Shown: positions 16,152 through 46,568, counted from the stretch's first letter. The stretch: DNA of 55,583 nt from an uncultured Clostridia bacterium (GCA_937875315.1 CALNCE010000020.1:1-55583); one strand, 5' to 3'. Translations and numbers: made by a program. The notes: a model not told the origin generated them from the letters alone.

Positions 16152-16167
16152 TATTTATCTTCCCTTA

Positions 16168-18653: not shown

Positions 18654-18672
18654 TAATTTTACTCCCTTCTTA

Positions 18673-24190: not shown

Positions 24191-24220
24191 AAAAAAAGAG
24201 CGGACGTCCGCTCTTTTTTT
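24191..24220. terminator. Intrinsic terminator after NSS copy 2
   Basis: Perfect palindrome AAAAAAAGAGCGGACGTCCGCTCTTTTTTT. Confidence 0.85.
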
Positions 24221-24238
24221 ATCTTGAATTTACATATC

Positions 24239-25717: not shown

Positions 25718-25904
25718 TCTGCACCTTCCCTTCTTATTATCAATACGATTGCAATACAACGAAAATTATATCCTTTTTAACTATATTTCATTAACCTCCT
25801 ATCTTTGTTAGTTTTTTTCAATTATGTCCTTATTAAATAAGCTATAACGTATGCATTTAATAATTATATGTATATAAATGAATGCATAAAATATGATTAA
25901 GTCT

Positions 25905-25954
25905 TGCAAACGTATCTTTCCATGAATTATACTATATAGCAATTCGTTTGTCCA
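25905..25954 (-). promoter_or_regulatory. SigA promoter plus cre-like operator for NSS copy 2
   Basis: TGGACA-17-TATAAT (25926-25954); TGCAAACGTATCTT at 25905-25918, same spacing as in copy 1. Confidence 0.6.
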
Positions 25955-26142
25955 GCTAAAAGTATATTATATTTAAAACAATTAATGCATAAAATAATAA
26001 TTCATAATGTTTATATTATGCATTTGTATAAAATGCTTATAACGTATTTATATTACTTTTCTGTAAAAAAGTTGCTGCGCAACTTCCGCTATAGGGACAT
26101 ATGTCCTATTTGCAAGGGCAAAAGAATCTTATTCTTTGTTTA

Positions 26143-27492: not shown

Positions 27493-27568
27493 AACTACCT
27501 CCATAAAATAAATTATCCTCGACCGGATGGTCAAGGATTACTATACACAATAAAATACATGAATATTA

Positions 27569-31875: not shown

Positions 31876-32520
31876 TTATTCCTTTTTTTCAAGGGCATTC
31901 TTCACTGCATTCATCAAAGCTTTACTTGTTATGGTTGCACCTGAAACAGCATCCACATCAGTTGTTTGATTTTCTATTATGGATGAAATTATTGTACCTA
32001 TTGCATTTTCACTGACACCCTTTGTTTCATTGTGAGACACAACTTCGATTTGAATAATTTTATCGTCCTTCAGAGTTACTGATACTATGATAGGACCTCC
32101 GATACCTCTATCTTCACCTGTATATTCTATTGAATGAGAATTTATTTCTTCCGACTCCTCAGAAGGGGGTGTTTGTTCCGGTTCTGTTGTTATATATTCT
32201 TCCGATTGTGAAATTATTTCTTCCGGTTCATCTGCAGGTGAAAGTGTCTGTTCTTTTTCGGATTCTTCAGTAGTTTCGGACTCTTGTTCTACAGGTTTTT
32301 CCGGCTTTTGTTCTACATGCTGTTGCACTTCAGTCTGTTGCTCTTCTGAAATATTCTCTTTATTATTATCTTCTGTCTCTTGGTTTATATTTTCACTACT
32401 TAAAATAGTGTTATTTTCAATTCCTTTTGAAGCTTCAGTATCCGTTTTTATTCTCTCATCCGAAGAACAACCAACAATACTAAGCATCAAAATTAATAAT
32501 ACCATCAATAGATTTTTCAT
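31876..32520 (-). CDS. Lipoprotein with E/Q/P-rich linker and C-terminal FMN-binding (flavinylation) domain
   Basis: Lipobox IVGC; GIGGPIIVSVTL...HNETKG...DVDAVSGATITS. Confidence 0.85.
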   Translation of the reverse strand: MKNLLMVLLILMLSIVGCSSDERIKTDTEASKGIENNTILSSENINQETEDNNKENISEEQQTEVQQHVEQKPEKPVEQESETTEESEKEQTLSPADEPEEIISQSEEYITTEPEQTPPSEESEEINSHSIEYTGEDRGIGGPIIVSVTLKDDKIIQIEVVSHNETKGVSENAIGTIISSIIENQTTDVDAVSGATITSKALMNAVKNALEKKE

Positions 32521-32530
32521 AGTCGCCTCG

Positions 32531-33148
32531 TCAAAGCAGTTTTCTTCTTTTTTCAATAGCTTTTAACTCTTTTTGTTCTTCTTCAATAATTTTTTCTTTT
32601 TCTATATTTAGTTTTTTAGATAATATTTCAATAAATATATTCCTGAAATTATTTTTCCATTCTGTCATTGAAGGGCTGTAAGTCAGCCCAAAGGCCAATA
32701 ATTTTCCTGCATCCTCTTGTATATTACCGAGCCGTACCTGTTCAAAATCAAGTCCGTAAATTTCATTACCGGCAATAATAAAGTTTTTAAAATTTACATC
32801 ATATAAAATATATTGCTCTTTATAGAACCCAAAAACAGCAGAGTAAAAACTCTTAAGATAGCTGCATAGAGTATTAACCATTCTTAAGTCCAAAGTATTA
32901 CTTTTTTCTTGTTCCTCATACCAATCAAGAAAATTAAACTCTCCCAAATCTTCAAGATATAAATGGTTTTCTTCTTCTTTAATTATTGAAGGAACCTTAA
33001 CTCCTGCTTTTTTTAAAATATTCAGTATTTCTTTTTCCATTATGTAATTTTCATGATTTTCAAATTTTTTTATAATATATGTGCAGTCATCTTCTACAAT
33101 TCGAAATACTTTATTTCTTTTGCTTATTAATTCTATCTCTTTATGCAT
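32531..33148 (-). CDS. Small-molecule kinase, APH/choline-kinase-like fold
   Basis: IIKKF, GVKVPSII, catalytic loop LYDVNFKNFI, DFE; no signal peptide. Confidence 0.72.
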   Translation of the reverse strand: MHKEIELISKRNKVFRIVEDDCTYIIKKFENHENYIMEKEILNILKKAGVKVPSIIKEEENHLYLEDLGEFNFLDWYEEQEKSNTLDLRMVNTLCSYLKSFYSAVFGFYKEQYILYDVNFKNFIIAGNEIYGLDFEQVRLGNIQEDAGKLLAFGLTYSPSMTEWKNNFRNIFIEILSKKLNIEKEKIIEEEQKELKAIEKRRKLL

Positions 33149-33879
33149 ACTTCAATGTCCCCGTTTTCTGTGTAGCCGCTTAATTCCTTTGCTATTCCTT
33201 CAATGGCATTTTTCAAAATACTCTGAACAAACGGAACCATTGTAATTTCCTGTCCGTTAATTTTAAGCATTACACTCTGCTCAGTCAATATACAGTCCCT
33301 CCTTTCCGCCTCGCCTTTCAAAATCTTTGAGCTTAATTCAGCGCATGTGTATCCGCATTTTTGGCAGCATTCATCCTTCATGTCCGGAGGTCTGTCAAAT
33401 ACTTTCTCCTCAATAATATTCACCATTTTTTCAATTTCAGTTATTGAGTTTATAACGGGAATACCCTCATATTCCGACATGCTATTGGATATTTTCCCTG
33501 ATATTGCAAAGGTTGTTTCATCCATCCTGTCTTGAATTCCTTCCACATCGTGGGCTGTTACTATTTTAGGTATACATGTATCCCTCACTCCTTCTAAAAT
33601 AACAAAATCATGGTTGTAAAAACTAAGAATTTCATTCATGCTCAGCTGTTTTTGGAATAATACGTCTGTTTCATAGGCTCCTCTTGCAGTAACCAGCTGA
33701 GAGCCTGCCATTTTGTGTCTGTGAGTGTTGGTTCCTTCCACGTCCATTTTAAATTCCTCAAAATGAATTTCTTTTACGCTGCCTACAGTATAATTACGTT
33801 TTCGAAGCTCCTTTATTATATTTTCTATGGTAGTAGTTTTACCGGACTTTGTTATTCCGATTACTGAAAAGACCTTCAT
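33133..33879 (-). CDS. mobB: MobB-family GTPase with C-terminal Fe-S domain
   Basis: SVIGITKSGKTTTIE, VGSVKEIH, DVEGTNTHRHKMAG, ILEG; CQKCGYTC...C cluster motif. Confidence 0.88.
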   Translation of the reverse strand: MKVFSVIGITKSGKTTTIENIIKELRKRNYTVGSVKEIHFEEFKMDVEGTNTHRHKMAGSQLVTARGAYETDVLFQKQLSMNEILSFYNHDFVILEGVRDTCIPKIVTAHDVEGIQDRMDETTFAISGKISNSMSEYEGIPVINSITEIEKMVNIIEEKVFDRPPDMKDECCQKCGYTCAELSSKILKGEAERRDCILTEQSVMLKINGQEITMVPFVQSILKNAIEGIAKELSGYTENGDIEVCIKR

Positions 33880-33920
33880 AATATACGGTTTCTCCTTTCT
33901 TTGTCTATTGAAAAATTAAG

Positions 33921-34047
33921 ATGCCCTAACCCTATTTTTCAGAGTCCTGATTTGGGGACATTCCTCCTACCAACAAAGACTTTCCCTAAATAAGGAGGTG
34001 TGTCCCCATACCCCTAATAAATAGCGGTAGGTCATTCGCAACGAATT
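33921..34047. repeat. Composite palindrome: REP-like unit (33954-34013) inside the arms of a second palindrome family
   Basis: GGGGACATTCCTCCT...AGGAGGTGTGTCCCC core matches 4449-4559; flanks match 55425-55490. Confidence 0.72.
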
Positions 34048-34808
34048 CCCAATTTATGTGACGCAAGGAACAAATAAATTGGTGAATGAGACTGCGCTAA
34101 TAACAATAATGCTGCTGCAATACTTAGGACTATTATAATATAATCAACTGCCCGCATTTTCAAAACCATGCAGCTTGTTCTTTCGGGGTATGCTCTGAAA
34201 CCTCTCATTTCCATTGCTGCAGCCAATTCCTTTGCCTTTGTTACGGAATTAATGGTAATGGGAGTAAGTATGTATTTGTAAACTTGAATTTTCTTATTTA
34301 ATTTAACTTTCTTTAGCTCAATTCCCCTAAGCTGTATTGCAGTTACCATATCCGTCATTTCCTCTTTGAATATGGGTAAAAATCTTATTGCAACGGAAAC
34401 CATAAAGGCTATTTCATAAGGACAATGCCATTGAATAAGCCCTTGTATTATTTCCCTGCTTGACGATGTTGTTATTATTGCAGCAGAAATTATAATTATT
34501 ACCATTCGCAAAATAAATTCAAGTGCTCTTAAAATTCCGTAATCAGTTAAAATTGTAAGGCTGCCTATTTTCAAAACAGGAGCTCCCGCATTAGTTAACA
34601 AACTCTGAATTAACGCTATTAAAACTATTATTTTAAGAAGCCTTTTTAGCTTTACAAGAGTCGATATTAAATTAACATTATTTATAAGCGCAATTACTAT
34701 TGCTGCAAATAGTATTAATGATAAAACAGATATATCATTGTAAATTAATCCGAGGGTTGATAAAATTAAAACTTGAACTATTTTTGTTCGAGGGTCTATA
34801 TCATTCAT
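34032..34808 (-). CDS. ECF transporter transmembrane component T
   Basis: IDPRTKI, AIRFLP, AIQLRG and AMEMRGF coupling motifs. Confidence 0.93.
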   Translation of the reverse strand: MNDIDPRTKIVQVLILSTLGLIYNDISVLSLILFAAIVIALINNVNLISTLVKLKRLLKIIVLIALIQSLLTNAGAPVLKIGSLTILTDYGILRALEFILRMVIIIISAAIITTSSSREIIQGLIQWHCPYEIAFMVSVAIRFLPIFKEEMTDMVTAIQLRGIELKKVKLNKKIQVYKYILTPITINSVTKAKELAAAMEMRGFRAYPERTSCMVLKMRAVDYIIIVLSIAAALLLLAQSHSPIYLFLASHKLGIRCE

Positions 34809-35457
34809 AATTTACCCCCTCAAGAGCTAATACTTTGTCTTTATGCCTTTCAATAAAATCCTTGTTATGGCTTATAATAAGCATACCTATATTTATCTTT
34901 TTTAATTTGTCCAAAACTTCCGATAATGCATCTATTCTTTCTTTATCAAGGGATGCAGTAGGCTCGTCCAAAATAAGATATTTAGGACCAATCATCAATA
35001 CGGAAGCAATGGCTAAACGCCTTTTTTCTCCATAACTTAAAAAAAGGGGATATGAGTTTTTAACTTTTCCAAGGTCAAAAATTTCAAGCATTTCTTCAGC
35101 TTTATCCATGGTTTCTTCCTTATTGTATCCCTTAAATAATAAAGGGAATGTCAATTCTTCCACTACAGATGTGCTGAAGAGCTGCCTTTCAGGATACTGA
35201 AAAACATAGCCTACCATTTCGCCGATACTGCCAAGAGACAGACTTGCTGTACTTTGACCGAATACTTTTACTTCACCGAAAGATGGTTTCAATATTCCCA
35301 TGATAAGCTTGGTTAAGGTTGTTTTCCCGGAGCCGTTTTTTCCTGTCAGTACAGTTGTTTCTCCATTTTTTAAATTAAGAGAAAAATTGTCAAATACCTT
35401 TCTTCCCTTAGGGTATTTATAAGAAATATTGTTGAGCTCAATTGTGTTATTCATCAT
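34801..35457 (-). CDS. ECF transporter ATPase (A')
   Basis: GKNGSGKTT, VFQYPERQLF, LSYGEKRR, LDEPTASLD. Confidence 0.92.
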   Translation of the reverse strand: MMNNTIELNNISYKYPKGRKVFDNFSLNLKNGETTVLTGKNGSGKTTLTKLIMGILKPSFGEVKVFGQSTASLSLGSIGEMVGYVFQYPERQLFSTSVVEELTFPLLFKGYNKEETMDKAEEMLEIFDLGKVKNSYPLFLSYGEKRRLAIASVLMIGPKYLILDEPTASLDKERIDALSEVLDKLKKINIGMLIISHNKDFIERHKDKVLALEGVNYE

Positions 35458-36111
35458 TCACCTAAGATTAAAAATCCTGTCTGCAATTTTTATATTATCA
35501 TAATCATGGTCAACCATGATTATTGTTTTTCCTTCTTCTTTTAACTTTAATAAAACATCTTTAATTATTTCTTTTCCTTCATCATCAATCCATGACATTA
35601 TTTCATCACATATAAGAATTGAAGGAGCAAGCATTAAAACAGATGCAATTGCAACAAGCTGCTGCTGTCCTCCCGATAAATTATTAGGATTGTCGTATCT
35701 GTATTTTTCCATATTCATTGTTTTTAATATTTTATCAATACGATTGCATATTTCTTCTTTGTCAACACACAGGTTTTCAGGACCAAATGCAAGCTCATCT
35801 TCAATAGTAGGTGAAAAAAGCTGTGTCGAAGGATTTTGAAATATAATTCCTATCTTTGAAACTGTTTCCGAAATACTTAACCTATTTATATTTTCGCCGA
35901 AAATTAATACTTCGCCGGATAATTCACCTTTGTATAACCTTGGTATCAGTCCGCATATTAAGTTACACAAGGTGCTTTTACCGCAGCCGCTTTGTCCGAT
36001 TATTGCAACCGTTTCACCTTTTCTTACGCTAAAATTAACATCCTTTAAAACATATCCTTCCGAGTTGTTGTATTTAAAACTTAAATTTTTAACTTCAACT
36101 GCATTCATCAT
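35458..36111 (-). CDS. ECF transporter ATPase (A)
   Basis: GQSGCGKST, IFQNPSTQLF, AFGPEN, LSGGQQQ, CDE. Confidence 0.92.
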   Translation of the reverse strand: MMNAVEVKNLSFKYNNSEGYVLKDVNFSVRKGETVAIIGQSGCGKSTLCNLICGLIPRLYKGELSGEVLIFGENINRLSISETVSKIGIIFQNPSTQLFSPTIEDELAFGPENLCVDKEEICNRIDKILKTMNMEKYRYDNPNNLSGGQQQLVAIASVLMLAPSILICDEIMSWIDDEGKEIIKDVLLKLKEEGKTIIMVDHDYDNIKIADRIFNLR

Positions 36112-36620
36112 TTAACCTCAATTTCAGTAATCCACTTGCATCTTCTGTTGCTGAAAGTATCCGAAACCACAATGGATTCATAGGGACCTCTTCCTCCTGA
36201 GTCCCTACCGCCTAAGTATTTCCCTTCTTCCATAAAAGCAATATAAACATTTTTATCTATTGAGACCTCTTCTGAAGAATAAGCAACAGAATAACCATCC
36301 GCTGCTTTGATAATAATTATTTTGTTTTGAAAATCAATATTATTCTTATTAAGCAGCTCTTTCAGCTGAACTCCGGTATAGATATGTGTGGCGGGCTCAG
36401 TCGTTGATGTGTCAAGAACTGCTTCAAAATCCCCACTGTAAAGAATTATATCTTCTATGGTTATAACTCTTTTATTTTCATCATCTGCCAAAACAATTTG
36501 TGCATTTGCCAATATTTCTTTTTGTTTTTCAATATATTCTTTGTTTAAATTTAATGAAACAAATAATGTAATTGTCAATATTATTATTAATATAACAATT
36601 ATTGCAGCACTTCTTTTCAT
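36108..36620 (-). CDS. Membrane-anchored single sulfite-oxidase-like (molybdopterin-binding fold) domain protein
   Basis: N-terminal TM; YTGVQLKELL, AADGYSV, IAFMEEG, GPYESIV, KWITEIEV pattern. Confidence 0.72.
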   Translation of the reverse strand: MKRSAAIIVILIIILTITLFVSLNLNKEYIEKQKEILANAQIVLADDENKRVITIEDIILYSGDFEAVLDTSTTEPATHIYTGVQLKELLNKNNIDFQNKIIIIKAADGYSVAYSSEEVSIDKNVYIAFMEEGKYLGGRDSGGRGPYESIVVSDTFSNRRCKWITEIEVK

Positions 36621-37615: not shown

Positions 37616-37658
37616 ACCGGCATTCCTTTCAGTGAGCATATTATAATCAGCAGCATCT

Positions 37659-38210
37659 TTAATTCTCTAATATATTCATTTTTTCCAAACTTATGTTGAT
37701 TGTATATGCTATGAGCCCGCCTATTGTACCTGACAGGGCTGCGGCAGACAATATTAAGATAACCGTAACAAAGGGAAGCCTGAAAAATAATAAATTGGAA
37801 ATAAGTGTGCCAGTAACATTTGCGGCTAAGCAGCCAAACACATAATGAAGAATATTGTACTTTTTATTCTTAGAAAATAAGAATACAATATCAACAACTA
37901 TTCCCGGCAGAGTGTAGGAAACAATGCTCATGATACCGTGAGTTCCCATAGTTCCCGCTGCAATCACCAGTATTCCTTGTACAATGCCTATTAATGCGGC
38001 TGTGCCTGTTTTTTTTACAATTCCTGCACCCAATACTATCCAAAACATATAGAAACCGCCGGCAATGGCTCCCCCCGGAATAAACAAGGGGCCCGTTATA
38101 ACATGAACCAATGGTACCACAATTGGTTTGGTTGCTATTCCAAGGGCTGATACCACTGCTATTATAATTAAGTTATAGACTGAAAATTTATTAAGAAATT
38201 TTTTTACCAT
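37659..38210 (-). CDS. ECF transporter substrate-binding S component
   Basis: 183 aa, ~6 TM, AVVSAL in TM1, KKTGTAALIG loop; co-encoded with EcfA/A'/T. Confidence 0.82.
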   Translation of the reverse strand: MVKKFLNKFSVYNLIIIAVVSALGIATKPIVVPLVHVITGPLFIPGGAIAGGFYMFWIVLGAGIVKKTGTAALIGIVQGILVIAAGTMGTHGIMSIVSYTLPGIVVDIVFLFSKNKKYNILHYVFGCLAANVTGTLISNLLFFRLPFVTVILILSAAALSGTIGGLIAYTINISLEKMNILEN

Positions 38211-38218
38211 GAAAACCT

Positions 38219-38689
38219 CTACTCAAGTATTATTTCATCCACATGCTTAATCCAGCGCTGGCTGAAGGGGTCTCTTCTTATAATCAGCTGGAAGGGACCG
38301 TTTCCTCCCTGTTTCTTTGACTTAAGCAATTCGTTGTCCCTTTCAAATGTCAAATATACATTTGAAGGCTCTTTGATTTCTTCAACGCTTAAAATTATTC
38401 TGTAGCCGTCAGATGCATTAAAGGTAATCTTGCTATAGTTTGAAATATCTATATTCAACGTTTCAAAAAGTTTTATAAGTTCAATGCCTTTGTATTCCGT
38501 TTCAACGGGCTTTGAACCGCTGCTTCTAACGACAGCAGGAAATTTAACTGCTTCTTCATGAGTGTAAATAATTTTCGTATCAACCGTTTCATATTTACCG
38601 TCAATATTTACGGTTAATGAGGGCAGCTCTTCAGAGCAGCCTGTTAAAATAAATATTAAAATTATAAAAATAAGAATTTTCTTTAACAT
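38219..38689 (-). CDS. Lipoprotein with single sulfite-oxidase-like domain
   Basis: Lipobox LTGC; YKGIELIKLF, ASDGY, GPFQLII, RWIKHVDEIIL. Confidence 0.75.
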   Translation of the reverse strand: MLKKILIFIILIFILTGCSEELPSLTVNIDGKYETVDTKIIYTHEEAVKFPAVVRSSGSKPVETEYKGIELIKLFETLNIDISNYSKITFNASDGYRIILSVEEIKEPSNVYLTFERDNELLKSKKQGGNGPFQLIIRRDPFSQRWIKHVDEIILE

Positions 38690-38703
38690 ATTTTCCCCTC
38701 TGC

Positions 38704-39858
38704 TCAATTGTCCAATGAGCTGTTCACTGCATCCTTTACGGAGTTTAAGAAACCCCTGCAGGTTGAAGTAGCCCCGCTTATGGAATCCACGTTTAAATTT
38801 TGAGTTTCAGTGATTTCATAGGATAATTCTCTAAATGCTTCTTCGAAATAGCCTGTAGTTTCACCGTGACTCAGAACTTTTATATTTGTTATTTTCTTAT
38901 TGTTTATAATAACTTCCGTATTCATTATACCGCCAAAGCCCATCCCAAAGCCTTCATAGGTTCCATCTTTTATGCTGTCAATTGAAGTTATTGCCTGCAC
39001 TGAAGTATTTGAACCTGATAATGGGAAAAATATATATAAACCTGCAATTATACAAATACATATTAATATATAGGTTGAATTCTTAAGTTTTCTGTTTCCA
39101 ATAGTCAGCGAAAAACCATCATTATTTTTGATGCATTTATTTATACATTTAAGACAGTTAATGCATTCGGGTGATATTTCTTCCGCCTCGGTTTGCTGCT
39201 CTTCTACAGGACAGTCTTTTAAACAATAAGAGCAGTTACAGCTCCCTTTATTAATTTTAAATGGTCCCACTGCATATAGCAAGCTTTGAAATGCTCCCAA
39301 AGGACAAAAATATCTGCAGAATATTCTCCTTCCAATCAGTGATACAAAGATAATCAATAATAAAACTATTGTTCCGGTTTGAAATTTTGCTCCTATGAAT
39401 ATATTTAAGTATGCAAGCCAGGGAGAAAACGGAGAAACTATGTTTCCCATGCCAAGTATACTTAAAATCATTATTGCAATTAAAACAATATATTTAAGAA
39501 GTTCAGGATTATGAGGAAATTTTACTTCCTTCAGCCCGATTTTACTTCCTGTATATTTGAAAAAGTCCTGCATTGCTCCAATAGGACAAATATAACCGCA
39601 AAAAGCTCTTCCCATCAAAAATGCGGTGACAGCTATTCCTGTTGTTAATGCAATGCTTCTTGAAGCTCCACGCCATCTGTAAGATAGATCCATAAAGAAA
39701 GACTTAAGAGCACTCCATCCGCCGTAAGGATTCATATCTCCTATGGAGAGAATTCTAAACCCAATTATTTCATTTATATACATGCCGTAGCTCAAACATG
39801 ACAATACCACTATAATGGTTGCAGTGATTTGTATTACGCTTCTTATATTCAACTTCAT
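38704..39858 (-). CDS. NapH/NosR-like membrane polyferredoxin with C-terminal FMN-binding domain
   Basis: FCGYICPIG and FCRYFCPLG, CSYCLKDCP, CINCLKCINKC; VDSISGATST. Confidence 0.87.
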   Translation of the reverse strand: MKLNIRSVIQITATIIVVLSCLSYGMYINEIIGFRILSIGDMNPYGGWSALKSFFMDLSYRWRGASRSIALTTGIAVTAFLMGRAFCGYICPIGAMQDFFKYTGSKIGLKEVKFPHNPELLKYIVLIAIMILSILGMGNIVSPFSPWLAYLNIFIGAKFQTGTIVLLLIIFVSLIGRRIFCRYFCPLGAFQSLLYAVGPFKINKGSCNCSYCLKDCPVEEQQTEAEEISPECINCLKCINKCIKNNDGFSLTIGNRKLKNSTYILICICIIAGLYIFFPLSGSNTSVQAITSIDSIKDGTYEGFGMGFGGIMNTEVIINNKKITNIKVLSHGETTGYFEEAFRELSYEITETQNLNVDSISGATSTCRGFLNSVKDAVNSSLDN

Positions 39859-41423
39859 TTCTTTTCAATCCTTGATAGTTCCGTCATTATTTTCTTATCC
39901 TTATGTAGACTGACTTGTCCATCTTCATAAATCAAATAACATTTAAGCATATCATCCATAGAAAGCTCAATCTTTTCATCATTTTTATTTACTGCAGTAA
40001 ATTTGTCATCTTCATCCCATCTCATGCCTGCAACCAAAAGCACATCTTCCAAAAGCATTCCTTCACTTCCCCCAATTGATTTTGTTCTTACAACTTCAAT
40101 CATTTTCTCGGGGAAAATAACGGCATCCTTTGTGGTTGAAAAATGAGTCATATGTTTTACATTCATTCCAAGCTTAAAATTAGGAGCAATATTCATCGGA
40201 GCATTATCTCCTTCAACCTTAATAAAATATCTTTGCCTTACCAATGATATTGTTTCATGTTTTGCAAGACCGTCTGTGGCAGACATGGTAAAGAATCCTT
40301 TTTCATCTACTTCATCAAATTTTCTTAATATTTTCCCTACTTCTATGGAGCTATCCTTAGAGCCGTAGTATTCATAATAATAGGGCTCAATATCTTCGGT
40401 CAAAGGGTTGAACATGTGCACTTTATCAATATCCTTGGGGGATATTTCCTTATATAAATCAATATTTGAAACCATTTTTACCCAGTAAGGACCAAGCTCC
40501 AAAGGAACAGAAATTCTTACCGGTTTTTCTTCGTCTTTGATATCCTTTCCGTTTATCTGCCAGGTAAGTATTATATCATTTACAGCTAATTTTTCCTTGT
40601 CTATCATGGTGTAGTATCCGTCCCTCCCGGTCACACCTATACCTGCATACCGGCTTAAGTCAATACCTTCATTTTCCAAAACATCACGAAGAGAAGGTCC
40701 TTTTACACGCATATCCGTTTCTGTTCCCGTTGTATTAATTAAAGTAACATCCATGTCTAACTGTTCATATTTTTTAATTTCATCAGTATCTATTCGAACA
40801 GAGCCGCCATCCCAATTTATTGCAAAGCTGTTAATATCCTTCTGCCACATTTCCTGAGGCACCACATCAGGAACTTTTGCCATTTGAATATTATAATTCC
40901 AATACTGATAATGTCCAATGGCTGCATTTACGGCATTTACCACAGCCTGAGAGCTTATGGTGGCGCCTGTCAGCTGGATGATATCTTCGGGGTTTTCCTT
41001 ATCAAGAACTACCAAATTTAAATATTTATTAATAGGTAAATTTGTAAACCTGTCCAAAAAGTAATCATATTCCATATGCTCCGCATAGTCCGGTGATTCC
41101 TCGTGGTTTAAAATTTTAATTCCAATTAACAACTCATCATATTGGTCTAAAGCAGCCAAAACTTCTATAGGACCGTTATATCCGACACAGCTTACAACAT
41201 ATGCACATGTTTTTCCATCAATTTCATATGCTCTTTTTACTGCGGGAAAATACAATGAACCATATAAGTCATCAGAAAAGCCTTTTATCAGTGTTATTTT
41301 TTTCGCAGTTGGATAAAATAACTTTACTGCTTCCTTTTCCTCAGAAGAATCATTTAGCGTAAAAAACAAAGTGCCTGCAACAACCAAAATAATTATGATA
41401 ATAAGTATGTATCTGTTTTTCAT
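39855..41423 (-). CDS. Membrane-anchored RnfG-like FMN-binding domain fused to sulfite-oxidase-like domain(s)
   Basis: GYNGPIEV, NHEESPDY, QLTGATISS; then KGPSLRDVLE, GRDGY, PVRISVP, YWVKMVSNI. Confidence 0.8.
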   Translation of the reverse strand: MKNRYILIIIIILVVAGTLFFTLNDSSEEKEAVKLFYPTAKKITLIKGFSDDLYGSLYFPAVKRAYEIDGKTCAYVVSCVGYNGPIEVLAALDQYDELLIGIKILNHEESPDYAEHMEYDYFLDRFTNLPINKYLNLVVLDKENPEDIIQLTGATISSQAVVNAVNAAIGHYQYWNYNIQMAKVPDVVPQEMWQKDINSFAINWDGGSVRIDTDEIKKYEQLDMDVTLINTTGTETDMRVKGPSLRDVLENEGIDLSRYAGIGVTGRDGYYTMIDKEKLAVNDIILTWQINGKDIKDEEKPVRISVPLELGPYWVKMVSNIDLYKEISPKDIDKVHMFNPLTEDIEPYYYEYYGSKDSSIEVGKILRKFDEVDEKGFFTMSATDGLAKHETISLVRQRYFIKVEGDNAPMNIAPNFKLGMNVKHMTHFSTTKDAVIFPEKMIEVVRTKSIGGSEGMLLEDVLLVAGMRWDEDDKFTAVNKNDEKIELSMDDMLKCYLIYEDGQVSLHKDKKIMTELSRIEKK

Positions 41424-41431
41424 GTTATCAC

Positions 41432-42217
41432 CTATTCAATGATAATTACATCTATATTTGATACCCACTGGGGTTTATTTATATCTCCGGGCTCTTTTTG
41501 TCCTACTGCAAGTTTATAGGGAGCACCTTCATTTGTGGAATATTCTTCGCCGTTCTCTTCCCATGCAATAATCATGGGATATTTATTGTCAGGATTTGTT
41601 TCATCCATATATTCCATTTTAACCTGCTCAATTGTAAATTCCATGATGTATCCGTCCTGAGCTGTAATGGATATCTTTGAAGCTTCAGACTTTATCAGGG
41701 CTTTGCTTTCCAATAAGTCCCACAGCTTAACACCCTTAAAATGCGTATAGCCTGTTGTGCCGAAATTGTTCAGCCAATAAAAGTCAGCTTCAAAAATAAT
41801 ATCACTCATTCCCTTTAACTCATCTAAAGATAAAGAAAGCTCATTATCTACAAGACCTTTAACTTTTAAAACATTTTCTGCAATTACCGGCTGCTCATCC
41901 ACCGGCGGGGCTTCTTCTGTCGTCTTAGCAGTTACCGGCAATTCTTTAGAAGAATCAACCTTTGCATCTCCTTCCGGTTGTTCTGCTTCAGGTGTTTCTT
42001 CGGGAATTTCTTCAATTTCGCTTTCAATAGGTTCTTCAGGTTTGCCTGCTTCTTCCGGTTCATCCGGTGCTTCAGTTTCCCCTTTGATTATTTCATTATT
42101 GTTTTCTTCAATTGCAGCATTACTATCTCCATTTGCTGCCGGAGCATCAGTTTTTTCTGCAGAGCACCCTGCCAATATAAATATTACCGCAAATACTATA
42201 ATTAATAGTTTTTTCAT
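41432..42217 (-). CDS. Lipoprotein with long E/P-rich linker and sulfite-oxidase-like domain
   Basis: Lipobox LAGC; LKVKGLVDNELSLSLDEL, FKGVKLWDLL, AQDGY, IAWEENGE, QWVSNI. Confidence 0.8.
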   Translation of the reverse strand: MKKLLIIVFAVIFILAGCSAEKTDAPAANGDSNAAIEENNNEIIKGETEAPDEPEEAGKPEEPIESEIEEIPEETPEAEQPEGDAKVDSSKELPVTAKTTEEAPPVDEQPVIAENVLKVKGLVDNELSLSLDELKGMSDIIFEADFYWLNNFGTTGYTHFKGVKLWDLLESKALIKSEASKISITAQDGYIMEFTIEQVKMEYMDETNPDNKYPMIIAWEENGEEYSTNEGAPYKLAVGQKEPGDINKPQWVSNIDVIIIE

Positions 42218-42257
42218 ATAATACACCTCTTAAGAGGGGAGGAAACCTCCCCCTTAA

Positions 42258-45098
42258 TTATTTATTTAAATATCTTAAAAGCATTACCGTCGCTTCTGCT
42301 CTTGTTGTATTTTGTGTGCCGCCAAAAATATTGCCGGGCAATCCTTTGATAATCTCAGCTTTAACTGTCTTTGCAACATTTACCTTTGCCCACTGAGACA
42401 CCTCATCATTGAAAACAGACAATACTTCATCAGCGTTTGTTATTTCTTCTTCCAAAAGTGAGCCTATTACAGTTCCTATTTCCTGCCTTGTAATGGGAGA
42501 ATTTGGCTTGAATGTTCCATCTTCATAGCCTTTTACATATCCTTTTTCTGCTGCTGCTAAAACATCCTTTACAAACCAGTCTGTAGGTTTCACATCAGCA
42601 AAGTTTGATACTGCATCTTCATCAGCAATATTTAATACTCTGATTAACAATGATACAAATTCTGCTCTGCTGATATTATTATTTGGTCTGAATAAACCGT
42701 TGCTGCCTTTTGCATAACCCATTGCCGCCATTTCCAGAATACTGTCCTTTGCCCAGTGGTTATCAATATCAGCAAAAAGAATATCCTTATCGGTTTTTAC
42801 ATCCTTCATTTCAGGTGCTTCATAATCTCCGGTGCCTAAAACTATGCAGTCAACCCATTTAACCCACATGGATTTGCTTTCTTCGATAATGAGTCTCAAA
42901 GGACCATACGCATTGTTATTTATATATCCTAAGCTTGATTCGTTTGGCACTAAGGGATAGCCTTCTGCTGCATATGCTAAAATTATTTTCTTATTCTGAC
43001 CCTGTGAATTTAAAACTCCATTTACGACCTGCTCATTGCTTCTTAATATTTGATTGTAATTTTGACCGGCAAATACCCTTATGTTTGGAGCATCTACATC
43101 ATCTTTAAGTCCAACAACATCATTGATCAAATTCCAAAGAACAATACCCTGCATTTCAAGAATGCCGTCACCTGTGTAAGTATCTCTCTTTGCATACTCT
43201 GTCATTGCTTCAATCTGCCTTAATGTAAATGTCATAGGTTCTTTAATTTGAGAGCCTGTTACACGTAATACCGGCATGTCCAGGTATCCTTTATATACAC
43301 CTTGATTGTGTCCCCAGGATTCATCAATTTCTTGTTCTGTACTTGTACCTTCACCGGTTCCTTGAGTATCTGTTGCAATTGACTCCCCTTCACCGATAAT
43401 TATTTCTTTTGCAAACTGCACCTGGTTTGAGCCGTTTGTATCGTTATAACCTGTTTTGCCGAATATTATTCTAAGGGGTCCTCCGTCATTTCCAAGACCC
43501 GGATTATAACCTTGGTCTGCAGGCCGGGCTACATAAGGATATCCGTTGTATCCATAGGCAACCAATACCGGAAGCTCTGTATAAACAGGATTAACATATT
43601 CTCCCGGGAAAGCTCCGTCACCTTTGTCCAATGCACTTTTCTCATAATAACCGTACAAAGAATCATCCTTTATTTGCTTTATGGTCATTGGTGCAAAATT
43701 ATAATTATCTGCAGCAATGAAACGCACGCTGATATTTTCATCTATATTTGGGTCCAAGCCTGCCTCAAGAAGCAAGTCCCACAAAGGAACACCTTTGTAT
43801 GAATTGTAATACCAAAAATATTCACTGTTTGAAAGGCTGTATTCCTTGACTGTATGAAGGTCTGTCATTGCTTCAATATCTTTGACGGTGTACCTTGTTT
43901 CTTTGCCTAAAGCGTCTCCGTGAATTATCAATTCATAATCAGTATATTTTGGATTATTGTATGGAGCATAGCTGTGCTCGTAAATATTTTCAGCATCCTT
44001 TTCTTCAATATAAATATATGCTACATTGGTAAATTCCTTGGCTGTGTTTTTATCTTGTTCATATACTAGCTTAAAACAACCGTCGTCATTATTCTTTTCC
44101 TTTATATAACCTTCTTCTGTGTCCAAGTATACCAAGGGAACTTCATTAATGCCGTAGGCAACGACATAATTATCTGCTTCGGAAATATTAACCGTAAGAA
44201 TGTTCTGTCTTGATTTATCCTTAAATATGATATTGCCTGCATTATCCTTTGCTTTCACATAATTATCGATTAAATATTTTACATTTATTCCCTCATATAA
44301 ATTTTCAACAACTTTACCGTCAATCTTTTCATAATATTTATTTAATAACTGTCCACCGGTATCCTCTTCTACCTGCCTCAATGAAACAGCTCTGTATCCT
44401 TCAACTCCGGGACCTTCAATTGTAAATGTGGCTCCGGTTATTGCATCCACATTGTAAGGTTCACCATCATGACTGATGTGTTTGTAAGGTGATGAGGGAG
44501 TAACCTTTATTAACTCATCCCCCACTGTGAGCTTCACTACTTCCTTGCCCCATTTAGACATATTCATATCATCAATGTCTGTTTGTCCAAATACAAGTTT
44601 TGGAAAGTCTTTATCTATATCAGCTTCTGTTATAGGAATATCTGTCCATGTAACCGGGGGAGCAAAAATATTCTTTGGAAAATCAGCCATTACCGTTATG
44701 TATTTTGCTACCATAGGCATAACTTCTTCCTTGCTCCCTAAGGTAAAGTCACTGAAATAGTAAGCATTTTTAAGCTCGCTGAGGGTTTTGGTAAATTCAA
44801 AGCCGTCAGAGCAAGTAAATTTAACTGTATAATCTTTGTCTGTTTTTAAACCGTCTCCAATAAGGTCGAATAAATCATATCCTTTTGCTTTTACGATTTT
44901 ATGAAATCCAAGGCTGTTGTTTGTGGAATATGTTCTCTCAATTAAGCTGTAATTTGACCAGTCCCCTGATGAAATTATTACTTCTTCTTCCATTCCCGTG
45001 CCTGTAATTACAAGTTCAGGCTGAGCTGCTGAAACAGGCATTGCATTCATAATAATCAGGGATATAATCAACAGCCATATTGTAACTTTTCTTGCCAT
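42258..45098 (-). CDS. SLH-anchored surface protein with four tandem sulfite-oxidase-like domains
   Basis: Sec signal; four repeats (KGYDLFDL, YEGINVKYL, YKGVPLWDLL, MQGIVLWNL; GPLR/PKL cores); three C-terminal SLH motifs (FRPNNNISRAE, FKPNSPITRQE, TTRAEA). Confidence 0.82.
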   Translation of the reverse strand: MARKVTIWLLIISLIIMNAMPVSAAQPELVITGTGMEEEVIISSGDWSNYSLIERTYSTNNSLGFHKIVKAKGYDLFDLIGDGLKTDKDYTVKFTCSDGFEFTKTLSELKNAYYFSDFTLGSKEEVMPMVAKYITVMADFPKNIFAPPVTWTDIPITEADIDKDFPKLVFGQTDIDDMNMSKWGKEVVKLTVGDELIKVTPSSPYKHISHDGEPYNVDAITGATFTIEGPGVEGYRAVSLRQVEEDTGGQLLNKYYEKIDGKVVENLYEGINVKYLIDNYVKAKDNAGNIIFKDKSRQNILTVNISEADNYVVAYGINEVPLVYLDTEEGYIKEKNNDDGCFKLVYEQDKNTAKEFTNVAYIYIEEKDAENIYEHSYAPYNNPKYTDYELIIHGDALGKETRYTVKDIEAMTDLHTVKEYSLSNSEYFWYYNSYKGVPLWDLLLEAGLDPNIDENISVRFIAADNYNFAPMTIKQIKDDSLYGYYEKSALDKGDGAFPGEYVNPVYTELPVLVAYGYNGYPYVARPADQGYNPGLGNDGGPLRIIFGKTGYNDTNGSNQVQFAKEIIIGEGESIATDTQGTGEGTSTEQEIDESWGHNQGVYKGYLDMPVLRVTGSQIKEPMTFTLRQIEAMTEYAKRDTYTGDGILEMQGIVLWNLINDVVGLKDDVDAPNIRVFAGQNYNQILRSNEQVVNGVLNSQGQNKKIILAYAAEGYPLVPNESSLGYINNNAYGPLRLIIEESKSMWVKWVDCIVLGTGDYEAPEMKDVKTDKDILFADIDNHWAKDSILEMAAMGYAKGSNGLFRPNNNISRAEFVSLLIRVLNIADEDAVSNFADVKPTDWFVKDVLAAAEKGYVKGYEDGTFKPNSPITRQEIGTVIGSLLEEEITNADEVLSVFNDEVSQWAKVNVAKTVKAEIIKGLPGNIFGGTQNTTRAEATVMLLRYLNK

Positions 45099-45150
45099 TT
45101 GTACCTCCTGATAATAAATGAGCAAATATCGCTCATTTATTTTCTTTATA

Positions 45151-46311
45151 TTATTCCGTTACTATTTCCGGTTCCGGAAACAGCGTGTTAAACACAACCA
45201 ATGCTGCTTCCGCACGATTAACATTCTTCACAGGTTCAAAGTTCTCAGCTGCTACTCCCACGAATACATCCTGTGCTTCAAGCCATGCTACAGCATTTCC
45301 TGCCCAGTCTGCAACATCTTCTTTGTCTGTGTAATTTGATTTTTCCATTACAAATTTGTCGACTCTTGCTTGTTCAACAAGTCCTTTTTTAACTGCTGCC
45401 CTTGCCGCTACAACTGCCATCTCTTGTCTTGTTATTACTTTTTCCGGTGCAAATGTGCCGTCTGTATATCCTACGAACAGCCCTGAATCAACAGCAGCTT
45501 GTACATATGGCGCTGACCATCTGTCAACAGTTATATCGCTGAATGCTCCTTCATAATCTTTAAGTTCATATTCCAATGCCACAACAATTATTTTGCAAAA
45601 TTGTTCTCTTGTAAACTCATTTCCGGGAGCATAAAGTCCGCCGCCCACACCATCTATTATTCCTCTTTTTGCAAGGTCATAAATTGCTGTTTCTGCAAAC
45701 TTGTATTCTTCTGTTATATCTGTAAAAGTAACTGTTTCTGTTACTTCTTCTTCAGCAGGTTCGGTATCCGGTACTTCTTCTTCCGGTGTTTCTTCAACAA
45801 CTTCTGCTTCACCTACAGTAATTTTATTAACCAATTTAAAAACGGTGCCAAATTCGCCTTCTGCTTTTACATTTCTGTAAACAGTTATTTCTTCAATTAC
45901 AGCTTCATCATTGTCTACAGCCTCACCGTCTACCTCATAAGCTAATACAAATTTTAGTTCATCATTTAAAACATCCTGAAGCGGTTGAGGGTCGATATCA
46001 TAACCATCTGCTGCGAAAAACTCAACGCTTCCATCTTCAGCAGTCACTCCTGCTTTTTCCTTCAATAAATAAGCTAAGCTTACGCCTTTAACCTGGACTG
46101 TTTTTTCTCCGCCTTTTGAATTATAAACATAATCCTGTGCTATTTGAGCTTCTTCAGGCATTCCCTTCAGCTCATCAAGAGTAAGCTTGAGTTCTGTTGC
46201 AGCCAAAGTGCCTCCGATTTCAACTGCGTAATTTTCTTCTGCAAAAACCAATGATTGCGATAGAATTATCACAATAACCAATACCAATGAAATTACTTTA
46301 AATTTTTTCAT
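45151..46311 (-). CDS. SLH-anchored surface protein with one sulfite-oxidase-like domain
   Basis: Sec signal; LTLDELKGM, KGVSLAYLL, AADGY, LAYEVDGE; acidic linker; three SLH motifs. Confidence 0.82.
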   Translation of the reverse strand: MKKFKVISLVLVIVIILSQSLVFAEENYAVEIGGTLAATELKLTLDELKGMPEEAQIAQDYVYNSKGGEKTVQVKGVSLAYLLKEKAGVTAEDGSVEFFAADGYDIDPQPLQDVLNDELKFVLAYEVDGEAVDNDEAVIEEITVYRNVKAEGEFGTVFKLVNKITVGEAEVVEETPEEEVPDTEPAEEEVTETVTFTDITEEYKFAETAIYDLAKRGIIDGVGGGLYAPGNEFTREQFCKIIVVALEYELKDYEGAFSDITVDRWSAPYVQAAVDSGLFVGYTDGTFAPEKVITRQEMAVVAARAAVKKGLVEQARVDKFVMEKSNYTDKEDVADWAGNAVAWLEAQDVFVGVAAENFEPVKNVNRAEAALVVFNTLFPEPEIVTE

Positions 46312-46385
46312 ACTTTCCTCCATAAGTTTTTATTATTTAATTTAGCAGGACTAAATTTAAATCATAAAAGTACGATAAAAAACCC

Positions 46386-46417
46386 AAAAAAACAACACTT
46401 CTGATAGAAATGCTGTT
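46386..46417 (-). terminator. Leader terminator (riboswitch expression platform)
   Basis: AACAGCAUUUCU-AUC-AGAAGUGUUGUU followed by a U-tract, between aptamer and first start codon. Confidence 0.75.
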
Positions 46418-46427
46418 CCCATGCTAT

Positions 46428-46528
46428 GTATATCTCCTTTCCATCAGGAGGCTTGACCGTTTCCAGTCAAACCCTATCGGCATAACGCCATAAATTTACA
46501 TTCTAAGGCTGTTATGCTCGGAGCTATT
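46428..46528 (-). ncRNA. Moco-family riboswitch (Moco RNA motif), P3-less 'Tuco' variant
   Basis: - strand: CUCCGAGCAUAACAGCC...UAUGGCGUUAUGC-CGAU-AGGGUUUGACUGGAAACGGUCAAGCCUCCUGAUGGAAAGGAG; hallmark CUCCGAG, AGGG, GAAA tetraloop, GCCUCC..UGGAAAGGAG; no P3 between P2 and P4. Confidence 0.9.
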
Positions 46529-46539
46529 AAGTTAAATTA

Positions 46540-46568
46540 ATTATATCACAATCTAAAAGTAGTGTAAA
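46540..46568 (-). promoter_or_regulatory. SigA promoter of the riboswitch-controlled operon
   Basis: TTTACA-17 bp-TATAAT with extended TG, just upstream of the aptamer. Confidence 0.75.

What the first reader, a model, noticed from the sequence alone, without database searches (positions are those of the whole stretch)
31876..46568. Candidate molybdenum/tungsten-cofactor scavenging and salvage operon (riboswitch, surface relay, redox module, ECF importer, phosphatase/kinase, MobB)
Seen: one promoter, a Moco-family riboswitch and 15 closely packed co-directional genes. They encode two SLH proteins and four membrane- or lipid-anchored proteins with sulfite-oxidase-like domains, a NapH-like ferredoxin, FMN-binding domains, a full ECF transporter (S, A, A', T), a phosphatase lipoprotein, a kinase and MobB-FeS. 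No moa/moe biosynthesis or modABC/tupABC/wtpABC genes are in the operon. Established: ECF transporters import vitamins and cofactors, and the riboswitch upstream usually reports the substrate. Inference: the operon captures exogenous metal-pyranopterin at the S-layer, relays it across the wall (analogous to Isd heme relay), keeps it reduced, trims, imports and re-activates it. I know of no characterised bacterial Moco/Wco importer. Alternative: reductive acquisition of Mo/W oxyanions.
Basis: partly seen in the sequence, partly recalled or inferred. Interest (0 to 1): 0.95.

Follow-up and report, generated by a model that had tools for sequence, protein, structure and literature searches.

The report
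Tungsten-cofactor salvage importer operon
A molybdenum/tungsten-cofactor RNA switch sits in front of a vitamin-type importer and cell-surface proteins built on the cofactor-binding fold, and related bacteria that have tungsten-enzyme genes but no detectable genes to make the cofactor nearly always carry it, so it likely takes the cofactor up ready-made, a route I did not find described for bacteria.

Summary
In detail: a promoter, an RF01055 riboswitch (71.7 bits, tungsten-type P3-less form) with terminator, and 15 co-directional genes. Six exported proteins carry at least 10 cysteine-less sulfite-oxidase-fold domains, most like the pterin-binder PruR. The core (riboswitch, such a domain, ECF S/A/A'/T, MobB, kinase, phosphatase) recurs across 80 loci; S is fused to the domain or the phosphatase elsewhere. 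In 171 genomes of the order, S was found in 14 of 16 with aldehyde oxidoreductases but no moaC, versus 1 of 41 with neither. Both exceptions, and this genome, have biosynthesis genes cut by contig ends; the other 13 lack moaA, and 11 lack moeA. Best reading (0.68): import of metal-loaded pyranopterin. Against: no binding data; 39 of 50 carriers keep moaC; S-layer and NapH parts are accessory, so the relay and redox steps are unsupported; this genome's own auxotrophy is unresolved. The scan noted this system before on other DNA; I found no paper describing it.

The parts
46540..46568 (-). sigma-70-type promoter-like site (TTTACA-17-TATAAT)
   Evidence: 11 of 12 matches; consensus match only
46418..46535 (-). 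Moco/Tuco riboswitch aptamer RF01055, P3-lacking (tungsten-type) form
   Evidence: 71.7 bits vs GA 36; P3 columns deleted in the alignment; P3-less = Tuco-associated per PMC2408646 (passages)
46388..46420 (-). intrinsic-terminator-like hairpin, likely expression platform
   Evidence: (1 found; 0.1 expected)
45151..46323 (-). g01: secreted protein, one Cys-less SUOX-fold domain (aa ~26-171) + 3 SLH
42258..45125 (-). g02: secreted 955-aa protein, four Cys-less SUOX-fold domains + 3 SLH
   Evidence: domains 26-202, 223-374, 384-578, 609-764
41432..42226 (-). g03: lipoprotein, acidic linker + one Cys-less SUOX-fold domain
   Evidence: lipobox
39855..41423 (-). g04: membrane-anchored FMN-binding domain (TGAT motif) + at least two SUOX-fold domains
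38704..39858 (-). g05: NapH-like membrane ferredoxin with C-terminal FMN-binding domain (SGAT); accessory
38219..38707 (-). g06: lipoprotein, single Cys-less SUOX-fold domain, paralogue of g09
37659..38210 (-). g07: ECF S component, YkoE-like fold; predicted substrate-binding subunit
   Evidence: PF09819 E 5e-14; model pLDDT 86.9, best fold match 5edl TM 0.78, 19% identity
36617..37639 (-). g08: lipoprotein of the alkaline-phosphatase/nucleotide-pyrophosphatase superfamily
   Evidence: D139, D271, H275, D311, H312, H323 invariant and T174 nearly invariant in 30 homologues
36108..36620 (-). g09: membrane-anchored Cys-less SUOX-fold protein, core partner of S
   Evidence: model pLDDT 94.1; PruR 7kom Z 16.3, rmsd 2.0, 123 aligned; downstream of S in 55 of 56 loci
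35458..36111 (-). g10: ECF ATPase A
   Evidence: TIGR04520 E 3e-64, below its cut-off
34801..35457 (-). g11: ECF ATPase A'
   Evidence: TIGR04521 E 9e-49, below its cut-off
34032..34808 (-). g12: ECF T component
   Evidence: PF02361 CbiQ E 8e-29
33917..34097 (.). ~180-bp multicopy repeat (MITE-like) overlapping the end of T and the T-mobB gap; not part of the system
   Evidence: 85-92% identical near-full copies on several contigs of G000
33133..33879 (-). g13: MobB with C-terminal putative Fe-S domain (PRK14494-like), cytoplasmic
32531..33148 (-). g14: APH/RIO/Bud32-like small kinase, cytoplasmic, catalytic motifs intact
   Evidence: D117, N122, D134 invariant, K27 nearly invariant in 44 homologues
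31876..32556 (-). g15: lipoprotein with FMN-binding domain only; relatives have an added FAD_binding_2 domain

Best explanation
The operon encodes a dedicated ECF importer under a tungsten-type cofactor riboswitch, and it likely takes up ready-made metal-pyranopterin cofactor (most likely the tungsten form) to supply the cell's aldehyde:ferredoxin oxidoreductases. Shown: the gene set, the riboswitch with terminator, the folds of S and of the Cys-less domains, their fusions, and the distribution across genomes. Inferred: when cofactor is scarce the terminator is read through; outward-facing sulfite-oxidase-fold domains, which have Asn/Ser/Thr where the enzymes have the metal-ligating Cys, would hold and shield the labile cofactor without catalysis; the membrane-anchored copy (g09) would hand it to the S component; the lipoprotein pyrophosphatase/phosphatase would remove the nucleotide tail or phosphate; A/A'/T would drive import; the kinase would restore the phosphate and MobB-FeS would pass the cofactor to apo-enzymes. 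The S-layer multi-domain proteins and the NapH/FMN module are optional add-ons (capture surface and, possibly, reducing power). In most carriers this is facultative salvage beside intact synthesis; in some lineages it has likely allowed loss of the whole pathway.
For: (1) Riboswitch upstream on the same strand in 53 of 80 loci; of the 27 misses, 19 have under 8 kb upstream before a contig end and 5 have the 10 kb filled by giant SLH/SUOX genes, 3 are real misses. (2) Core in the 56 of 80 loci with >=6 kb downstream: A, A', T 56; small SUOX protein 55; MobB 54; kinase 45; phosphatase 44. (3) 171 genomes of the order (>=95% complete, plus G000): S in 14 of 16 AOR+/moaC-, 1 of 41 AOR-/moaC-, 20 of 74 AOR+/moaC+, 0 of 40 AOR-/moaC+. 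The two exceptions have biosynthesis operons cut by contig ends (G176; G207). Dropping these two and G000 leaves 13 of 13 carriers, in 6 genera of 4 families, including G118 (1 contig), G027 (2) and G140 (9); no moaA in 13 of 13, no MoeA_N in 11 of 13, no TupA match in 12 of 13. The single AOR-less carrier (G153) has other Mo/W-enzyme genes, one just downstream of its operon. (4) All 11 moaC-less carriers among 50 further loci also lack moaA and MoeA_N; 5 of 5 tested have AORs. (5) SUOX fold with no Cys in the hairpin in 502 of 503 scored domains; the Asp-Gly-Tyr motif and the C-terminal Lys are kept (Asp 450, Tyr 362, Lys 287 of 503); the related PruR proteins bind pterins at this site (PMC11194511, passages). 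(6) Of 43 longer S homologues, 10 are annotated S+Oxidored_molyb and 26 S+phosphodiesterase (order seen). (7) Weak only: predicted S-g09 complex 0.56 vs best control 0.00, runs agree in >=90% of contacts, partner pLDDT >=82; that mark was reached by 116 of 157 solved and 2 of 215 mismatched pairs, but at <=0.60 by only 18 solved pairs and both mismatches.
Against: No binding, transport or expression data. 39 of 50 carriers keep moaC, so the operon is not a marker of auxotrophy. G000 itself holds a moaA fragment at a contig end, so it may be a prototroph. 7 of 39 tested genomes with no S, no AOR and no moaC still encode xanthine-oxidase-family (G126, G169, G194, G047) or DMSO-reductase-family proteins (G039, G119, G051): other routes or cofactor-less enzymes exist. 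PruR, the closest fold match, is reported to have a cleft too short for Moco (PMC11194511, passages). Kin are not independent: the 13 genomes may represent as few as 4 losses. ModA/WtpA were not searched in the 13. G201's S gene has no A/A'/T beside it. Free Moco is unstable (PMC9793310, passages), so the form available outside is unknown.
Confidence: 0.68

Rival explanations
1. Same salvage system, but the cargo is a metal-free pyranopterin (MPT, dephospho-MPT or cPMP); the metal is added inside by an unrecognised route, for example MobB-FeS.
For: PruR-type domains bind metal-free pterins (PMC11194511, passages); a phosphatase/kinase pair fits a dephospho-pterin cargo; 2 of the 13 moaA/moaC-less carriers keep a MoeA domain and 2 of 80 loci include moeA.
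Against: 11 of 13 lack MoeA_N and 12 of 13 lack a TupA match, so the known metal-insertion and tungstate-uptake steps are missing; in G000 the only MoCF_biosynth hit is CinA.
Confidence: 0.15
2. The operon acquires tungstate/molybdate or a chelated form of the metal, possibly reductively, with the riboswitch acting as product sensor (as B12 riboswitches do for cobalt ECF transporters).
For: Precedent of product sensing for CbiMNQO (PMC13119186, passages); most carriers can make the pterin; NapH/FMN module resembles extracytosolic electron-transfer systems (PMC8238504, passages).
Against: Carriers without moaA, moaC and moeA could not use free metal; most prototrophic carriers tested already have TupA (15 of 20); S is YkoE-like, an organic-substrate fold; pterin-fold, phosphatase and kinase partners have no role in oxyanion uptake.
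Confidence: 0.05
3. The cargo is a simple pterin or another vitamin (thiamine/HMP, as the S-component annotation says), unrelated to W/Mo enzymes.
For: S belongs to PF09819/YkoE-like and some sources name homologues thiamin/HMP permease; PruR binds monapterin/neopterin.
Against: Only RF01055 is in the window, no TPP or THF riboswitch; S is found in 34 of 90 AOR+ but 1 of 81 AOR- genomes; mobB is nearly always linked (54 of 56); identity to 5edl is 19%.
Confidence: 0.06
4. The direction is outward or local: the ECF module moves cofactor or flavin to the cell surface to load an extracytosolic redox chain made of the SUOX-like and FMN domains.
For: An ECF-based outward flavin route exists in Listeria (PMC9973259, search listing and start of abstract only); flavinylation motifs are present and ApbE is in 5 of 5 genomes tested.
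Against: The domains lack the catalytic Cys; NapH is in only 30 of 80 loci and minimal loci have no FMN domain; export makes no sense in carriers that cannot make the cofactor; an OFF-type terminator fits supply genes.
Confidence: 0.06

Closest known systems
Group I (dedicated) ECF vitamin importers, nearest S structure PDB 5edl (YkoE of YkoEDC; name and thiamine role recalled and from earlier scan notes, the PDB title gives only 'S-component of ECF transporter')
   Same: S + A + A' + T in one riboswitch-led operon; S model matches 5edl best (TM 0.78).
   Different: 19% identity; Moco/Tuco riboswitch instead of TPP; linked or fused SUOX-fold domain and phosphatase; mobB and kinase.
PruR pterin-binding proteins (PDB 7kom, 7kp2, 7kos, 7rkb; PMC11194511)
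   Same: Exported, small, Cys-less SUOX fold (Z 16.3); pterin-stacking Tyr position kept (alignment).
   Different: No Pro-Trp motif; hairpin 3 residues longer than 7kom; many copies, tethered by SLH, lipid or a helix; partner is an ECF transporter, not a DcpA-type signalling protein; Gram-positive anaerobes.
Sulfite-oxidase-family enzymes (MsrP/YedY 1xdq, SorA 2blf, chicken SO 1sox)
   Same: Same Moco-domain fold (Z 11.7-15.6); Asp-Gly and C-terminal Lys motifs align with SorA.
   Different: Mo-ligating Cys absent (502 of 503 domains); bare domains without the rest of the enzyme.
Moco/Tuco riboswitch regulons (RF01055; PMC2408646)
   Same: P3-less aptamer with terminator; the paper notes two P3-less RNAs of Syntrophomonas wolfei before 'putative sulphite oxidase' genes as unexplained exceptions, possibly relatives of these genes (my inference, not checked).
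   Different: The passages read list mod/tup transporters, moa/moe genes and enzymes, no ECF importer.
Dietary Moco uptake in Caenorhabditis elegans (PMC9793310)
   Same: Ready-made, protein-stabilised cofactor taken from other organisms.
   Different: Animal; transporter unknown; the 2022 paper states that uptake of exogenous Moco had not been observed in another organism.
NapH-like flavinylation systems (PMC8238504)
   Same: PF12801 membrane ferredoxin with FMN-binding domains; ApbE in the genome.
   Different: Accessory here; the paper's main text has no hit for 'ECF' or 'molybd'; supplements not read.
Dephosphorylate-import-rephosphorylate salvage (NAD via NadN/e(P4)-PnuC-NadR; recalled, no call)
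   Same: Surface nucleotidase/phosphatase plus importer plus cytoplasmic kinase.
   Different: Different protein families and cargo; analogy only.

Membership tests
Group I ECF transporter | S component with six-helix ECF fold | tested here: met
   PF09819; model matches 5edl, ThiT, RibU
Group I ECF transporter | Dedicated A, A' and T genes in the same cluster | tested here: met
   56 of 56 loci with enough downstream DNA
Group I ECF transporter | ATP-dependent uptake of a micronutrient | not testable with these tools
   needs transport assay
YkoEDC thiamine/HMP importer | YkoE-family S component | tested here: met
   PF09819 E 5e-14; 5edl TM 0.78, 19% identity
YkoEDC thiamine/HMP importer | TPP riboswitch control (recalled) | tested here: not met
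   only RF01055 in the window
YkoEDC thiamine/HMP importer | Thiamine-pocket residues | not tested
   no residue-level alignment to 5edl obtained; sequence search of PDB gave no hit
RF01055 Moco/Tuco riboswitch | Covariance-model score above gathering threshold | tested here: met
   71.7 vs 36 bits
RF01055 Moco/Tuco riboswitch | P3-lacking (Tuco-associated) form | tested here: met
   P3 columns deleted; same in the 15 aligned leaders; a pattern count over all loci was inconclusive
RF01055 Moco/Tuco riboswitch | Expression platform in the 5' leader | tested here: met
   terminator-like hairpin 46420-46388
RF01055 Moco/Tuco riboswitch | Ligand-dependent switching | not testable with these tools
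   needs reporter or binding assay
Sulfite-oxidase-family molybdoenzyme | SUOX Moco-domain fold | tested here: met
   g09 model: Z 15.6 to 3hbg, 11.7 to 1xdq; other domains by profile only
Sulfite-oxidase-family molybdoenzyme | Mo-ligating cysteine in the hairpin | tested here: not met
   no Cys in the hairpin window in 502 of 503 domains; Asn/Ser/Thr instead
PruR pterin-binding protein | Exported Cys-less SUOX fold with pterin-stacking Tyr | tested here: met
PruR pterin-binding protein | Pro-Trp motif and truncated hairpin | tested here: not met
   profile has Ser-Ser and 3 more residues than 7kom
PruR pterin-binding protein | Adjacent DcpA-type cyclase/phosphodiesterase gene | tested here: not met
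   none in the operon
ModABC/TupABC/WtpABC oxyanion importer | Oxyanion substrate-binding protein plus type I permease | tested here: not met
   no such gene in the operon; TupA in 1 of 80 loci, on the opposite strand
Isd-type relay | NEAT domains, sortase anchoring | tested here: not met
   no NEAT domain; NF033190 hits fall on the SLH part only
Isd-type relay | Directional hand-over between surface proteins | not testable with these tools
   only S-g09 was folded, weak support
NapH-like flavinylation system | PF12801 protein with FMN-binding domain and flavinylation motif; ApbE available | tested here: met
   ApbE elsewhere in the genome, not in the operon
Alkaline-phosphatase/NPP superfamily | Two-metal ligand set and Thr/Ser nucleophile | tested here: met
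   invariant Asp/His set and Thr174; nearest structures ENPP5 and bacterial NPP; roles of the residues recalled

The most novel reading that the evidence does not exclude
This is the first prokaryotic importer of intact tungsten/molybdenum cofactor: anaerobes in digesters and sediments cross-feed metal-loaded pyranopterin, catch it on arrays of catalytically dead sulfite-oxidase domains that act as carriers, edit its phosphate or nucleotide tail, and import it through an ECF transporter; several lineages have become true cofactor auxotrophs that treat it as a vitamin.
Probability: 0.6. Interest if true: 0.9.

Novelty: new variant of a known kind. Interest (0 to 1): 0.82.

Why it matters
Moco/Tuco is usually taken to be too unstable to share and to be made by each cell; ready-made uptake is documented in nematodes with no known transporter (PMC9793310, passages). 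A defined bacterial importer plus carrier domains would make cofactor transfer directly testable, explain genomes with W/Mo enzymes but no biosynthesis genes, add a growth factor for uncultured digester anaerobes, resolve the odd 'sulphite oxidase' targets of P3-less riboswitches, and offer cofactor-stabilising proteins for enzymology and for Moco-deficiency research. The transporter architecture is a known kind; the cargo, the capture domains and the resulting auxotrophy would be new.

Tried and rejected
Own-genome auxotrophy: no MoaC, MoeA_N, TupA/B, MogA or MOSC found in G000 (94.8% complete, 398 contigs), but moaA is present up to a contig end on the 1,359-bp C130. Laying four runs on C130 gave fragmented, mixed cover (none in X7) and no piece beyond the break: unresolved, so G000 is not counted as an auxotroph. 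No RNA holder listed. Single-sequence PDB search with g03 and profile search with S found nothing. My domain profile did not pick up MsrP itself, so the Cys position was set by offset from the shared Gly, not by alignment. A pattern count of P3 across all riboswitches was inconclusive. Fisher tests (p 2e-10 and 1e-5) overstate because genomes are kin; not relied on. Rejected: sulfite-oxidase enzymes (no Cys), thiamine importer (wrong riboswitch and distribution), NEAT/Isd membership, weak Pfam hits on g09 (SidE_mART, Baculo_11 kDa; below cut-offs). SLH and NapH as obligatory steps rejected (38 and 30 of 80 loci). Literature searches found no description of this operon; the library lacks most subscription papers and no supplements were read, so tables of ECF families or riboswitch regulons may already list these genes.


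Full report
OBSERVATION. The 15 minus-strand ORFs from 46323 to 31876 are real and tightly packed: gaps of -26 to +31 bp, except 152 bp between T and mobB. Rfam finds one family in the whole window, RF01055 at 46535-46418, 71.7 bits against a gathering score of 36. The alignment lacks the P3 stem; Regulski et al. (PMC2408646; passages read) link P3-less RNAs to tungsten-cofactor metabolism. A promoter-like site (11 of 12) lies just upstream and a terminator-like hairpin directly after the aptamer (leader z -4.95). Source names of close homologues and titles of related loci point to Sedimentibacter (Tissierellia).

THE SURFACE DOMAINS. An iterated local profile finds at least 10 Oxidored_molyb-like domains in six proteins: g01 (1), g02 (4), g03 (1), g04 (2 or more), g06 (1), g09 (1). 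The AlphaFold model of g09 (pLDDT 94.1, 90-row alignment) has the sulfite-oxidase Moco-domain fold: PruR 7kom Z 16.3 (rmsd 2.0, 123 aligned), chicken sulfite oxidase C185S 3hbg Z 15.6, YedY 1xdq Z 11.7; unrelated folds start at Z 4.8. Of 577 domains from the 96 loci scanned plus the window, 528 were distinct and 503 scored (25 dropped: no anchor Gly or too short). 502 of 503 have no Cys in the hairpin; at the offset of the MsrP Cys (12 before the shared Gly, measured on the fetched E. coli msrP) they have Asn 184, Ser 93, Thr 60, with Ser/Thr next to it; Asp-Gly-Tyr (Asp 450, Tyr 362) and the C-terminal Lys (287; 63 of 66 and 50 of 50 in the two small core classes) are kept. PruR proteins are Cys-less SUOX folds that bind small pterins through that Tyr, with a truncated hairpin and a Pro-Trp motif thought to exclude Moco (PMC11194511, PMC13259868; passages). 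Here the hairpin is 3 residues longer than in 7kom and has no Pro-Trp, and by offset is as long as in MsrP; that the cleft is Moco-sized is inference. That the Lys binds the cofactor phosphate in the enzymes is recalled, not shown.

THE TRANSPORTER AND ENZYMES. The S model (pLDDT 86.9) matches the ECF S component 5edl best (TM 0.78, 19% identity), then ThiT, PanT and RibU. g08 keeps a full two-metal ligand set and a Thr at the nucleophile position and is nearest to nucleotide pyrophosphatases. g14 keeps APH/RIO-type kinase motifs. Among 43 longer S homologues, 10 are annotated with Oxidored_molyb and 26 with a phosphodiesterase domain; in those read, S comes first, then a helix and the domain. 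So both parts are tied to S itself. A predicted S-g09 complex scored 0.56 against a best control of 0.00; runs agree in at least 90% of contacts and partner pLDDT is at least 82; the mark was reached by 116 of 157 solved and 2 of 215 mismatched pairs, but at 0.60 or under by only 18 solved pairs and both mismatches: weak support.

CONSERVATION. 445 stretches in GTDB genomes encode a relative of S; the best 80 were read. By titles they span Tissierellia, Clostridia, Syntrophomonadaceae, Alkaliphilus and single Thermotogaceae and Fusobacteriales bins. A local riboswitch profile hits upstream on the same strand in 53 of 80; 19 of the 27 misses have under 8 kb before a contig end, 5 have the 10 kb filled by giant SLH/SUOX genes, and 3 (L058, L090, L104) are real misses. 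SUOX-like domains occur in 79 of 80. In the 56 loci with at least 6 kb downstream: A, A', T 56, small SUOX protein 55, MobB 54, kinase 45, phosphatase 44. SLH proteins occur in 38 of 80 and NapH in 30 of 80 (partly truncated loci), so the S-layer and redox parts are add-ons. Minimal versions read riboswitch-phosphatase-mobB-S-SUOX-A-A'-T-kinase.

THE GENOMIC TEST. In an even draw of 170 genomes of the order at 95% completeness or more, plus G000, S (E <= 1e-40) was in 35, moaC in 114 and AOR-family genes in 90. S was in 14 of 16 AOR+/moaC-, 1 of 41 AOR-/moaC-, 20 of 74 AOR+/moaC+ and 0 of 40 AOR-/moaC+. The two exceptions look like assembly gaps: G176 has tupA, two moeA and moaA up to a contig end; G207 has mogA, a riboswitch and tupA up to a contig end. 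G000 has the same problem (below). Dropping these three leaves 13 of 13 carriers, in 6 genera of 4 families, including genomes of 1, 2 and 9 contigs; none has moaA, 11 have no MoeA_N and 12 no TupA match (ModA and WtpA not searched). Lacking the first steps, the metal insertase and the tungstate importer, they would need the finished metal-pterin. Of 50 further carriers (50 of 66 loci given; a few are the same genomes as in the draw), 11 lack moaC, all 11 also moaA and MoeA_N, and 5 of 5 tested have AORs. Kin are not independent; the safe count is 4 to 6 lineages against a background of 20 of 74.

AGAINST. 39 of 50 carriers keep moaC: salvage is mostly facultative. G000 has four AORs, two behind weak RF01055 matches, and no MoaC, MoeA, MogA, TupA/B or MOSC match (its MoCF_biosynth hit is CinA), but a moaA cut by the end of a 1,359-bp contig; close relatives have such small moa contigs and reads did not settle it. 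Of 39 tested genomes with no S, AOR or moaC (40 of the 41 were given; one is the carrier G153), 4 encode xanthine-oxidase-family and 3 DMSO-reductase-family proteins, one of them in a single-contig genome; so the link is tightest with AORs, and other routes may exist. G201 has S without A/A'/T beside it. Nothing was measured.

MECHANISM. Shown: gene set, regulatory RNA, folds, fusions, distribution. Inferred: read-through when cofactor is low; capture and shielding on dead SUOX domains; hand-over from g09 to S; tail or phosphate removal by g08; ATP-driven import; re-phosphorylation by g14; delivery through MobB-FeS. The phosphatase-importer-kinase logic is by analogy to NAD salvage (recalled). 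The redox module has flavinylation motifs and ApbE exists in 5 of 5 genomes tested, but a role in keeping the dithiolene reduced is a guess. Confidence 0.68 for metal-loaded cargo, 0.15 for metal-free pyranopterin, the rest for oxyanion, other vitamin or outward trafficking.

WHAT IS KNOWN. Nine searches found no paper on this operon. Seen as passages: PMC2408646, PMC8238504, PMC7759655 (no Moco salvage passage), PMC11194511, PMC13259868 (states that how pterins cross the membrane is unknown), PMC9793310 (states exogenous Moco uptake had not been observed outside C. elegans), PMC13119186, PMC13390414. Seen as listing only: PMC9973259, PMC7619442. No supplements were read; older regulon tables may list these genes. 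Six earlier notes of this scan describe the same system on other DNA; they are unchecked AI notes, not support. I had the PruR match and the contingency table before reading them; they prompted the fusion search and the 5edl check.

VERDICT. A real, conserved, apparently undescribed system: a known transporter type with a likely new cargo, new capture domains and strong genomic signs of cofactor auxotrophy. New variant of a known kind; interest 0.82.

Noticed in passing
L054:9522-14739 (G027:C1:264,500-270,060): A second RF01055 riboswitch in a 2-contig genome without moaA/moaC heads a FecCD-type ABC importer (permease, ATPase, Peripla_BP_2) followed by a MobA-MoeA fusion and mobB: a second candidate pterin-cofactor importer. 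FecCD genes are also inserted in the ECF operon in 4 of 80 loci (L099, L110, L124, L128).
   Followed up: partly
L052:7781-11000 and L053:6935-10000: A distant paralogue of the S component (30-34% identity) sits beside xdhC and a TehB-like methyltransferase, near xanthine-oxidase-family genes or mobA/moeA-like genes; possibly a separate supply route for Mo hydroxylases.
   Followed up: partly
window 33917-34097: A ~180-bp repeat with many 85-92% identical copies in the genome (MITE-like) overlaps the 3' end of the T gene, whose ORF is about 10 codons longer than in relatives, and fills the T-mobB gap.
   Followed up: partly
window 31876-32556: The last gene lacks the ~450-aa FAD_binding_2 domain found in ~630-aa relatives; the same short form occurs in L056 (237 aa).
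   Followed up: partly
G000:C130:1-1359 (L008): moaA fragment preceded by a ModC-like ATPase end; in two runs other contigs continue moaA upstream into a mogA-like sequence, so several moaA-bearing populations coexist and the contig may be mis-binned.
   Followed up: partly
L096, L097, L106, L113, L131, L135: Giant 1,900-2,680-aa proteins related to g02 (SUOX-domain arrays) precede S in Syntrophomonas/Eubacteriales-type loci.
   Followed up: no
G039:C1:2178783-2180051: A single-contig genome without moaC, AOR or this S component encodes a ~900-aa molybdopterin oxidoreductase with an in-frame TGA (selenocysteine FDH-like): cofactor source unexplained.
   Followed up: no
L051:1318-9304: The standard biosynthesis operon of the genus is riboswitch-tupABC-mogA-moeA-moeA-moaA-moaC-MOSC with no moaD/moaE among the ORFs listed.
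   Followed up: no
L040-L045: A rubrerythrin-like gene is inserted in or beside the operon, in either orientation, in several relatives.
   Followed up: no
window 11443-19695 and 22344-27534: Ordinary neighbours: a V/A-type ATP synthase cluster, two tandem SNF-family transporters and a xanthine/uracil permease; sir2 upstream and comM/dprA downstream of the operon are conserved flanks in close relatives.
   Followed up: no
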